NCBI RefSeq assembly: GCF_988243305.1
Contig: NZ_OZ547136.1
Strand: one strand, 5' to 3'
DNA: 64,000 nucleotides
Shown: positions 2,615 through 5,733 of the stretch, piece after piece
Position numbering within the stretch: position 1 is the first letter of the stretch
How the letters are laid out: each line of letters opens with the position of its first letter
The notes under the pieces: model-generated
Told to the model about the DNA's origin: nothing
The model's input: the letters and a program-made list of their open reading frames with translations, nothing else
The model's database searches: none
Program-made: the position numbers and the translations under genes

Positions 2615-3752
2615 TCAGGCATCACGCGGTAACCCTTTTTCAATTACCCGAACCAGACGCTGTTTTTTCGGCAATTGCACTGCGACTATGCACGCATTTC
2701 GTCTCTCGATTTGCTGCGCAATCGCCCACGCTATGTGCTCATCAAGAAGTGGGTGCTCACCTTTACGACTTTCCAGCGCCGCCAGAATCGTTTCATCCCA
2801 GGGCGCATTGCCTAAGGCTACGGCAATATTACGCAGCCAACGCAGGTGACCTATACGGCGAATCGCCGAACCTTCCGTGACTTTTAAAAACTTCTCTTCA
2901 CTCCAGGCGAATAACTCAATGAGTTCCGGTGCGTGTAGCGGCTTACGCGGGCTGAAATCGTCTTCTGTAGTGAGTTGCGAATAGCGATTCCACGGGCAGA
3001 TAAGCTGGCAGTCATCGCAACCATAAATACGATTTCCCATTAACGGTCGCAACTCTTCCGGGATCGCCCCCTCCAGTTCGATGGTGAGATAAGAGATACA
3101 GCGGCGAGCATCGACGGTATATGGCTCGACGATGGCTCCGGTCGGGCAAATCGTCATACAGGCCACGCATTTACCGCATCCTTCCTCGACTGGTTGATCC
3201 ACGGGCAGAGGAATATCGACCAGCAATTCGCCTAAAAAGAAGAACGAACCGGCCTCGCGATTGAGGATAAGTGAGTGCTTACCTGTCCAGCCAAGTCCTG
3301 CTTTTTCAGCTAACGGGCGCTCGAGAATAGGCGCAGAATCGACAAACGGTCTAAAATTCAGCGAAACACAATGTTGCTGAATCATCTCGCCCAGCTTTTT
3401 AAGTCGGTTGCGCAGAAGTTTGTGATAGTCACGGCCCAGCGCATAACGGCTAACATAGCCGAGTTTGGGATTTTTCAGCGTGCTGGCAAATGCGGCGTTA
3501 GCAGGAAGGTAATTCATCCGCACGCTGATCACGCGCAGCGTACCGGGCAATAACTCATGGGGGCGGGCACGTAGCATACCGTGACGCGCCATCCAGTCCA
3601 TTTCGCCGTGGTATTGTTTGTCCAGCCATGCTTGCAGTTTGGGCTCGGACTCGCTGAGATCGGTATCGGTAATACCTACCTGCTGAAAGCCCAGTTCTAG
3701 CCCCCACTGTTTAATATTTTGCGCTAATTGATTGAGATCGAGGGGCTCTGAC

Positions 3753-3754
<2 letters not shown>
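2615..3754 (-). CDS. queG: Epoxyqueuosine reductase QueG (4Fe-4S, cobalamin-dependent)
   Basis: ORF 2615..3862(-); 379-aa form starts at ATG 3754 ([10 protein letters not shown]...); ferredoxin-type Cys motifs CGKCVACMTICP and CDDCQLICP. Confidence 0.9.

Positions 3755-5733
<1,979 letters not shown>

What the first reader, a model, noticed from the sequence alone, without database searches (positions are those of the whole stretch)
3752..3755. Divergent queG and nnr start codons overlap on a CATG palindrome
If the annotated-length proteins are correct, the queG ATG (minus, 3754..3752) and nnr ATG (plus, 3753..3755) share two bases, leaving no intergenic space. Each promoter must lie within the other gene's coding sequence, or one start is misassigned.
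Basis: seen in the sequence. Interest (0 to 1): 0.2.

Follow-up and report, generated by a model that had tools for sequence, protein, structure and literature searches.

The report
Head-to-head queG and nnr start codons
Two real E. coli genes on opposite strands share the middle two bases of a CATG as their start codons, and each gene's promoter sits inside the other gene; this is rare and strongly conserved, but already annotated and already seen in published transcript maps.

Summary
CATG lies at 3752-3755. RefSeq annotates queG (minus, ATG 3754..3752) and nnr (plus, ATG 3753..3755) with a 2-base overlap.

- Published E. coli K-12 maps place the nnr-operon transcription start at window 3365, 388 nt upstream and inside queG.
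- They place the queG start at window 3778, inside nnr.
- The 414-nt transcript overlap forms double-stranded RNA that is cut by RNase III in vivo.

Both starts sit 7-8 nt after -10 elements that are invariant in 82 Enterobacteriaceae sequences and are held in place by rare codons: TAAAAT at 3352-3357, and TGGTATACT on the minus strand at 3786-3794.

- **queG start:** secure.
- **nnr start:** most likely the annotated ATG. It has a good Shine-Dalgarno site, and codon 6 is not a start codon in 21 of 82 sequences. Four Kosakonia-type sequences carry a frameshift that forces use of the downstream ATG. E. coli could therefore use either start, and I found no direct protein or ribosome data.

Even with the downstream start, the queG promoter and transcription start remain inside nnr.

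Verdict: real, rare (one published count finds 2 divergent overlaps in E. coli), conserved, already known. Low interest.

The parts
3752..3755 (.). CATG palindrome. It holds the queG start codon (minus, 3754..3752) and the nnr start codon ATG1 (plus, 3753..3755), which share bases 3753-3754.
   Evidence: CATG is present in 81 of 82 Enterobacteriaceae sequences.
2615..3754 (-). queG coding sequence (tRNA epoxyqueuosine reductase, 379 aa).
   Evidence: RefSeq annotation and ORF translation. There is no in-frame ATG, GTG or TTG in the 24-nt leader and none downstream before Met52 (my reading). The CAT is invariant in all 82 sequences.
3753..5300 (+). nnr (yjeF) coding sequence, 515 aa from ATG1. 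It is the first gene of the nnr-tsaE-amiB-mutL-miaA-hfq... operon.
   Evidence: Operon membership is from Conway 2014.
3740..3745 (+). Shine-Dalgarno site GAGGGG serving nnr ATG1. It is written in queG codons 4-5 (Pro CCC, Leu CTC) and the first base of Asp codon 6.
   Evidence: Anti-SD duplex energy is -7.2 kcal/mol with 6-nt spacing; only 9% of random 20-nt stretches from this 64-kb window (both strands) reach -6.0 kcal/mol or better. The site is nearly invariant at synonymous positions.
3768..3770 (+). In-frame downstream ATG (nnr codon 6), a possible alternative start.
   Evidence: Anti-SD energy is only -3.2 kcal/mol. Across 82 sequences this codon is ATG 33, GTG 16, TTG 8, a non-start codon 21, and ATG behind a +1 frameshift 4.
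3786..3794 (-). queG extended -10 promoter element TGGTATACT (hexamer TATACT at 3791..3786). It lies inside nnr codons 12-14 (AGT ATA CCA = Ser-Ile-Pro).
   Evidence: Sequence read. Third codon positions of nnr codons 12-14 are 100% conserved. The pattern TGGTAnnCT, using rare xTA codons, is kept in relatives of 45-50% protein identity. The mapped transcription start lies 8 nt after the hexamer.
3778..3779 (-). queG transcription start.
   Evidence: This is the end of the Conway divergent-operon overlap, 4392114, as given in Huang 2020 Table S1 and converted. The p19 dsRNA cluster ends at 4392109 and the Lybecker dsRNA at 4392100.
3755..3778 (-). queG 5' leader, 24 nt (UUUUUCUUCAUUGUAUGGUCCGUC). 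It has no real Shine-Dalgarno site and overlaps nnr codons 1-9.
   Evidence: Anti-SD energy is -2.2 kcal/mol, about the background level.
3352..3357 (+). -10 element TAAAAT of the nnr-operon promoter, preceded by T at -14 and C at -13. It lies inside queG codons 133-135 and depends on the rare Arg codon AGA.
   Evidence: GGTCTAAAATTCAGCG is identical in nearly all of the 82 sequences (4 carry one substitution after the hexamer), and TCTAAAAT itself never varies. Third positions of queG codons 131-135 are 99-100% conserved. The element is not conserved in distant relatives.
3364..3365 (+). Transcription start of the nnr operon.
   Evidence: Conway promoter coordinate 4391701, taken from Huang 2020 Table S1 and converted.
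3365..3752 (+). nnr 5' leader, 388 nt, fully antisense to queG codons 1-130.
3365..3778 (.). Region transcribed from both strands (414 nt). It is the source of RNase III-processed double-stranded RNA.
   Evidence: [quoted passage not shown] Lybecker dsRNA MS-212 spans 4391717-4392100.
3719..3766 (.). Block conserved at almost every base, synonymous sites included. It covers the two back-to-back ribosome binding regions.
   Evidence: 10 of the first 12 queG third codon positions are at least 95% conserved, against a background of about 10%.

Best explanation
queG and nnr are both real genes whose start codons abut on one CATG, so the pair has no intergenic DNA. All expression signals are written into the partner's coding sequence.

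- **queG promoter.** queG is transcribed from an extended -10 promoter (TGGTATACT) that doubles as nnr codons 12-14. This gives a 24-nt leader with no Shine-Dalgarno site.
- **nnr-operon promoter.** The nnr-tsaE-amiB-mutL... operon is transcribed from a promoter with a -10 (TCTAAAAT) but no -35. It doubles as queG codons 133-136 and gives a 388-nt leader antisense to the first third of queG.
- **nnr translation.** Translation starts mainly at the annotated ATG (3753), using a GAGG Shine-Dalgarno site that doubles as queG codons 4-6.
- **RNA overlap.** The two mRNAs are complementary over 414 nt, including both ribosome binding sites. They pair in vivo and are cut by RNase III.

Shown, by published data plus conservation: the positions of both transcript starts, the double-stranded RNA, and the conserved embedded signals.

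Inferred: that ATG1 rather than ATG2 is the main nnr start in E. coli; that the named -10 elements are the functional ones; and that head-on transcription and RNA pairing make the two units dampen each other.
For: **Annotation.** RefSeq annotates the 2-base overlap.

**Transcript ends.** Conway coordinates taken from Huang 2020 Table S1, the p19 dsRNA cluster S-361 and the Lybecker dsRNA MS-212 all bracket window 3365-3778 (ungapped conversion).

**Conserved -10 elements 7-8 nt upstream of each mapped start.** GGTCTAAAATTCAGCG is essentially invariant across the 82 sequences and requires the rare AGA codon. AGTATACCACA is almost invariant in the same set; only a few sequences differ by one base. 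Synonymous-site conservation clusters at exactly these places. The queG extended -10 pattern persists in relatives of 45-50% protein identity, with rare CTA, TTA or ATA codons.

**nnr start.**
- Shine-Dalgarno energy is -7.2 kcal/mol for ATG1 and -3.2 for ATG2.
- Codon 6 is a non-start codon in 21 of 82 sequences. It drifts M/V/L/I/E like an internal residue.
- S. enterica arizonae lost ATG1 but has ATG at the adjacent codon.

**queG start.** The CAT is invariant, there is no alternative in-frame start, and the N-terminus MSxPLDL aligns with distant homologues.

**Folding.** Both initiation regions fold less stably than most shuffles.

**In vitro transcription.** yjeF-yjeE-amiB-mutL is transcribed about 1.9-2.1 times better by sigma-S holoenzyme in vitro (Maciag 2011). 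This fits the C at -13.
Against: - I found no direct evidence (N-terminal peptide or initiation-ribosome profiling) for either start. Four supplements that could be searched had no relevant entry, and the Ribo-RET preprint has no supplement held.
- Conservation of ATG1 is confounded. Three of the four CATG bases are fixed by the queG start codon, and the G sits in a block that is conserved even where it no longer codes for Nnr.
- Four Kosakonia-type sequences have a +1 insertion between the two ATGs, so ATG2 works as a start there and residues 1-5 are dispensable.
- The consensus promoter scan found nothing in 3300-4200, because neither promoter has a -35 match.
- The transcription starts come from RNA-seq-based operon maps read second-hand from another paper's supplement. 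The primary table was not available.
- A regulatory effect of the antisense overlap has not been shown.
Confidence: 0.8

Rival explanations
1. The nnr start is misannotated in E. coli. Translation begins at the downstream ATG (3768, MKKNPVS...), so the coding sequences do not overlap and 13 nt (3755-3767) separate them.
For: ATG2 is in frame. Some gene callers predict 510-aa products that would start there. Four Kosakonia-type sequences are frameshifted between the two ATGs and must use ATG2. The bases between the ATGs stay conserved even in those sequences, so their conservation is not due to Nnr coding. The T. maritima enzyme lacks the first ~20 residues.
Against: ATG2 has only a weak Shine-Dalgarno match (-3.2 against -7.2 kcal/mol). 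The codon is a non-start codon in 21 of 82 relatives, which then have only ATG1. The frame from ATG1 is open in 77 of 82 sequences. Loss of ATG1 in S. arizonae is accompanied by an ATG at the next codon. Even if true, the queG transcription start and promoter remain inside nnr.
Confidence: 0.15
2. Both ATG1 and ATG2 are used in E. coli, giving two Nnr isoforms that differ by five residues.
For: Both codons lie on the mapped mRNA. Each one is the only possible start in some relatives.
Against: No data show two products. ATG2 has a weak ribosome binding site. Ribosomes that initiate at ATG1 would run over ATG2.
Confidence: 0.2
3. The queG start is wrong, and queG begins at an internal or upstream codon.
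For: queG has no recognisable Shine-Dalgarno site (-2.2 kcal/mol). The open frame continues upstream to a GTG at 3862.
Against: The mapped transcription start at 3778 excludes the upstream GTG. The next in-frame start downstream is Met52, which would remove a conserved N-terminal segment. The CAT is invariant in 82 of 82 sequences, including the one where the G of CATG changed. Distant homologues align from this Met (MSxxLDL / MTTTLDL).
Confidence: 0.03
4. The strongly conserved 48-bp block around the CATG is the binding site of a protein regulator, or a structured RNA element, rather than two ribosome binding sites.
For: Conservation is stronger than usual for the start of a gene and extends to 3719. 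It persists where nnr coding is broken.
Against: There is no Rfam match. Both strands fold less well than shuffles. The sequences vary too little for covariation to be tested. The block coincides with the expected footprints of two initiating ribosomes. No regulator is known to me.
Confidence: 0.1

Closest known systems
Divergent (head-to-head) overlapping gene pairs in bacteria
   Same: The genes are adjacent on opposite strands and their coding 5' ends overlap. The overlap arose by movement of a start codon. Such pairs are very rare: Huvet & Stumpf 2014 (PMC4161906) count 2 divergent pairs among 663 overlapping pairs in E. coli.
   Different: The overlap here is the minimum possible, two bases inside the start codons themselves, so no amino-acid codon is shared. 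What the genes share is signals (promoters, Shine-Dalgarno site, leaders), not protein-coding information.
Overlapping divergent operons, or excludon-type antisense arrangements (Conway et al. 2014; Lybecker et al. 2014; Huang et al. 2020; the excludon concept from Listeria)
   Same: One operon's long 5' leader is antisense to the neighbouring divergent gene. Double-stranded RNA is detected in vivo and is processed by RNase III. This locus is itself listed in those data sets.
   Different: A reciprocal on/off effect on expression, which defines an excludon, has not been shown for queG and nnr. Here the overlap also covers both ribosome binding sites and both start codons.
Extended -10 (TGnTATAAT) promoters embedded in coding sequence
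   Same: The queG promoter has TG at -15/-14, a 5-of-6 hexamer and no -35. It lies within a coding sequence, and codon choice is constrained by it.
   Different: The host coding sequence belongs to the divergent neighbour, and the constraint has lasted across Gammaproteobacteria.

Membership tests
Divergent overlapping gene pair | Two adjacent protein-coding genes on opposite strands, both real | tested here: met
   queG and nnr are annotated in RefSeq. Homologues carry the QueG_DUF1730/Fer4_16 and the YjeF_N/Carb_kinase Pfam domains. The pair is kept from Enterobacteriaceae out to relatives of 45% identity.
Divergent overlapping gene pair | The coding 5' ends share at least one base, with both start codons correctly placed | tested here: inconclusive
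   The queG start is well supported. nnr ATG1 is favoured by its Shine-Dalgarno site and by comparative data, but ATG2 is not excluded in E. coli and no direct start-site data were found.
Overlapping divergent transcription units (excludon-like) | Each transcription start lies beyond the other, so the transcripts overlap at their 5' ends | tested here: met
   The published coordinates 4391701 (+) and 4392114 (-) correspond to window 3365 and 3778. Conserved -10 elements sit at the matching positions.
Overlapping divergent transcription units (excludon-like) | Sense-antisense RNA duplex is formed in vivo | tested here: met
   From the literature only: p19-captured cluster S-361 and the antibody-captured dsRNA MS-212.
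Overlapping divergent transcription units (excludon-like) | Expression of one unit lowers expression of the other | not testable with these tools
   This needs promoter mutants or reporter fusions. I found no published test.
Extended -10 sigma-70 promoter (queG) | TG at -15/-14, a -10 hexamer with A at position 2 and T at position 6, and a start 6-8 nt downstream | tested here: met
   The minus strand reads TGG-TATACT at 3794..3786 and the mapped start is at 3778/3779.
Extended -10 sigma-70 promoter (queG) | Activity that depends on the TG motif and needs no -35 | not testable with these tools
   The best -35 candidate matches 3 of 6, and the consensus scan found no promoter. Function needs mutagenesis.
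Sigma-S-preferred promoter (nnr operon) | C at -13 next to the -10, and preferential transcription by sigma-S holoenzyme | tested here: inconclusive
   TCTAAAAT has C at -13. In vitro the sigma-S to sigma-70 transcription ratio is 1.88-2.06 for yjeF through mutL (Maciag 2011). The promoter responsible was not mapped in that study, and dependence on rpoS in vivo was not checked.

The most novel reading that the evidence does not exclude
The queG-nnr junction could be an ancient, selected two-way antisense switch. Head-on transcription and pairing of the two mRNAs over both ribosome binding sites would couple expression of the queuosine-completing enzyme inversely to the nnr-tsaE-amiB-mutL-miaA-hfq operon.

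In addition, the first ~20 residues of Nnr, including the conserved Ser-(Ile/Leu)-Pro motif, could be kept mainly because they spell the queG promoter and leader. That would be a protein motif maintained by a DNA signal rather than by protein function.
Probability: 0.25. Interest if true: 0.45.

Novelty: already known. Interest (0 to 1): 0.2.

Why it matters
This is a clean, well-conserved example of how far bacterial gene packing can go. Two genes have no DNA between them, and promoters, leaders and ribosome binding sites are encoded within each other's reading frames.

Practical points follow from this.
- "Silent" recoding of the first ~15 codons of nnr, of queG codons 1-12, or of queG codons 131-135 would hit the partner's promoter or ribosome binding site. 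A clean deletion of either gene would do the same. The nnr operon also carries tsaE, amiB, mutL, miaA and hfq.
- Rare codons here (AGA, ATA) mark DNA signals and are not translational features.

It adds no new kind of biology.

Tried and rejected
**Start-site data sets.** I looked for direct evidence on either start. None had a relevant entry for nnr/yjeF or queG/yjeS.
- TRAINSPOTTER N-terminomics.
- TetRP.
- Giess et al. 2017.
- INRI-seq: the one hit was an unrelated off-target list.
- The Ribo-RET preprint has no supplement held.
- Thomason 2015 is not held.
- The Conway 2014 supplement is not held.
- A search by accession numbers returned noise.

**Consensus promoter and terminator scan of 3300-4200.** Nothing was found. 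The scan requires a -35 match, which neither promoter has.

**An nnr promoter close to the ATG.** I looked for one in the conserved block 3719-3752. No hexamer there has both A at position 2 and T at position 6, so I dropped the idea.

**A sigma-32-type promoter.** CTGAAA-N13-CCCCACTG at about 3682-3709 resembles one. Those bases are largely explained by conserved Phe-Gln-Gln and Trp-Gly codons, and no transcription start is reported there. I did not pursue it.

**RNA elements.** There is no Rfam match. Neither strand has a stable fold.

**Solved structures.** None exists for E. coli Nnr. The T. maritima homologue only shows that the first ~20 residues are an extension.

**Word-indexed protein search.** It returned only close relatives. 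Distant relatives came from the representative search plus contig look-ups.

**Locus L088.** Its queG N-terminus appears frameshifted, so I did not use it.

Full report
**What is in the sequence**

The window is E. coli chromosome: orn, three tRNA-Gly genes, queG on the minus strand, then nnr-tsaE-amiB on the plus strand. Positions 3752-3755 read CATG. The minus-strand ATG (3754..3752) opens queG ([18 protein letters not shown]...). The plus-strand ATG (3753..3755) opens nnr ([12 protein letters not shown]...).

RefSeq annotates exactly this 2-base overlap. It does so in a strain 100% identical to the window and in K-12 (queG 1666-2805 minus and nnr 2804-4351 plus, in locus coordinates). CATG is also the only way two divergent ATG codons can share bases.

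**Rarity and conservation**

- Huvet & Stumpf 2014 (PMC4161906) counted 663 overlapping adjacent gene pairs in the E. coli reference genome. [quoted passage not shown]
- The 68 nt around the junction are 100% identical in 5,248 of 5,425 complete E. coli genomes.
- I fetched 80 Enterobacteriaceae loci, one per species, with Nnr identity down to about 72%.
  - CATG is present in 81 of 82 sequences, counting the window and K-12. The exception, S. enterica subsp. arizonae, reads CATT followed directly by ATG.
  - One pattern used to find these loci was MTDHTMKK. This could bias the set slightly towards sequences with that N-terminus. Five other patterns were also used.

**Where the promoters are**

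Huang et al. [quoted passage not shown] Their Table S1 adds three items:
- the antibody-captured dsRNA of Lybecker et al., MS-212, at 4391717-4392100;
- the Conway et al. 2014 operon map, with the yjeF operon promoter at 4391701 on the plus strand;
- a divergent overlap spanning 4391701-4392114.

A sequenced read fixes the coordinate conversion at window = coordinate minus 4,388,336. The K-12 to window alignment has no gaps over 3300-3830. The conversion gives:
- the nnr-operon transcript starts at window 3365, which is 388 nt upstream of its ATG and inside queG;
- the queG transcript starts at window 3778, which is 24 nt upstream of its ATG and inside nnr codon 9;
- the two transcripts overlap by 414 nt.

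Conway et al. describe this operon (yjeF through rlmB) as the most complex in their data set.

**Sequence signals that match these starts**

Across the 82 sequences the usual coding pattern, with a variable third codon position, disappears at three places.

| Place (window) | What it is | Conservation |
|---|---|---|
| 3343-3362 | Plus-strand -10 element TAAAAT (3352-3357), 7-8 nt before the mapped start | GGTCTAAAATTCAGCG is identical in nearly all sequences; 4 carry one substitution after the hexamer |
| 3786-3796 | Minus strand TGTGGTATACT, an extended -10 (TG, one base, TATACT), 7-8 nt before the mapped queG start | Third positions of nnr codons 12-14 are 100% conserved |
| 3719-3766 | About 48 bp around the CATG | 10 of the first 12 queG third positions are at least 95% conserved |

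- **First place.** The first T of TAAAAT exists only because queG Arg134 uses AGA. By general knowledge AGA is the rarest E. coli arginine codon.
- **Second place.** The element is spelled by nnr codons Ser12-Ile13-Pro14 (AGT ATA CCA). ATA is a rare isoleucine codon.
- **Background rates.** Outside these clusters, about 10% of queG third positions and about 5% of nnr third positions are at least 95% conserved.
- **No -35.** Neither promoter has a -35 match. That is why the consensus scan found nothing.
- **Sigma-S hint.** The nnr-operon -10 is preceded by T at -14 and C at -13. Maciag et al. 2011 found yjeF, yjeE, amiB and mutL transcribed 1.9-2.1 times better by sigma-S holoenzyme in vitro. 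This is suggestive only.

**The start codons**

*queG.* This start is secure.
- The 24-nt leader contains no in-frame ATG, GTG or TTG.
- The next in-frame start downstream is Met52.
- The CAT is invariant in all 82 sequences.
- Distant homologues align from this Met.
- queG has no real Shine-Dalgarno site (-2.2 kcal/mol, about background). Its leader is U-rich.

*nnr.* Only two starts are possible, because the next in-frame start lies inside the conserved fold.

For ATG1 (3753):
- It has a GAGG Shine-Dalgarno site at good spacing. The energy is -7.2 kcal/mol; 9% of random stretches from this window reach -6.0 or better. ATG2 has -3.2 kcal/mol.
- Codon 6 (ATG2) is ATG in 33 sequences, GTG in 16 and TTG in 8. 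It is a non-start codon (CTG, CTA, GAG, ATA or CTT) in 21, and those species have only ATG1.
- S. arizonae lost ATG1 but has ATG at the next codon.

Against certainty:
- Four Kosakonia-type sequences carry a one-base insertion between the two ATGs, so they must start at ATG2.
- ATG1's own conservation is confounded by the queG start codon.
- I found no N-terminal peptide or initiation-profiling evidence.

I put ATG1 as the main E. coli start at about 0.75-0.8. Whichever start is used, the queG transcription start and promoter lie inside nnr.

**The conserved block around the CATG**

The block coincides with the footprints expected for two initiating ribosomes on complementary mRNAs. It includes the nnr Shine-Dalgarno site, which is written in queG codons 4-6.

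Both initiation regions fold less stably than most shuffled versions: 178 of 200 and 191 of 200 shuffles fold at least as well. There is no Rfam match. A protein binding site cannot be excluded.

**Beyond Enterobacteriaceae**

I used representatives of 45-50% Nnr identity and their contigs. In five usable loci the divergent pair is kept with almost no spacer.

| Locus | Gap between start codons | Note |
|---|---|---|
| L084 | -2 (CATG overlap) | As called |
| L086 | -2 | Only if queG starts at the in-frame ATG that gives MTTTLDL; this is my own re-call |
| L083 | +6 | As called |
| L085 | about +22 | My own re-call of the queG start |
| L089 | +22 | As called |

- Four of these loci (L083-L086) keep AGy-xTA-CCA (Ser-Leu-Pro) in nnr. 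On the minus strand this reads TGGTAnnCT. The queG extended -10 inside nnr therefore appears old.
- The TAAAAT element inside queG is not conserved in these relatives.
- In two other loci nnr is not next to queG.

**How it most likely works**

Shown:
- the positions of both transcript 5' ends;
- the double-stranded RNA in vivo;
- the conserved embedded elements.

Inferred:
- the named -10 elements are the functional promoters;
- ATG1 is the main nnr start;
- polymerases from the two promoters meet head-on across 414 bp;
- pairing of the two mRNAs hides both ribosome binding sites and invites RNase III, so the two units probably dampen each other.

No experiment I found tests that last step.

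**Comparison with what is known, and verdict**

The locus is a member of the rare class of divergent overlapping gene pairs, subject to the nnr start. It is also a member of the documented class of divergent operons with overlapping 5' ends, and it appears by name in those data sets. It resembles an excludon, but the defining reciprocal effect is untested.

The overlap is in the public annotation, and the overlapping transcripts and double-stranded RNA are published. The finding is therefore already known. Interest is low (0.2).

The small additions here are three:
- the exact embedded promoter elements;
- the rare codons that maintain them;
- the depth of conservation.

Noticed in passing
L054, L056, L062, L063 (Kosakonia cowanii, K. 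arachidis, K. oryziphila and one MAG), at the position of window 3766-3768: A one-base insertion between the two nnr ATGs puts ATG1, with its intact Shine-Dalgarno site, in frame with a 20-21 codon short ORF that runs across the real start (ATG2). Translation of nnr in these species may therefore be subject to an overlapping upstream ORF.
   Followed up: partly
window 2002-2158: The spacer between the first and second tRNA-Gly(GCC) genes is 157 bp here and 36 bp in K-12. At least 80% of a 171-nt query spanning this spacer is covered in 1,606 of 5,426 complete E. coli genomes. No extra tRNA is detected in it.
   Followed up: partly
window 2579-2632 (+): RefSeq annotates a 17-aa 'hypothetical protein' whose coding sequence overlaps the 3' end of queG on the opposite strand. 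This is a convergent overlap of 18 nt.
   Followed up: no
window 5272-5300: The 3' end of nnr overlaps the start of tsaE by 29 nt on the same strand (nnr ends at 5300, tsaE starts at 5272). This is a much longer co-directional overlap than the usual 1 or 4 nt.
   Followed up: no
window 3736-3739: A GATC (Dam methylation) site sits immediately 5' of the nnr Shine-Dalgarno site and is conserved in most Enterobacteriaceae sequences. It lies at the head of the operon that contains mutL. No functional link was examined.
   Followed up: no
L089 382-403: In a GC-rich distant relative, the 22-nt spacer between queG and nnr contains TATACT on the queG strand only 6 nt before the queG ATG. This would predict a leaderless queG mRNA there.
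   Followed up: no
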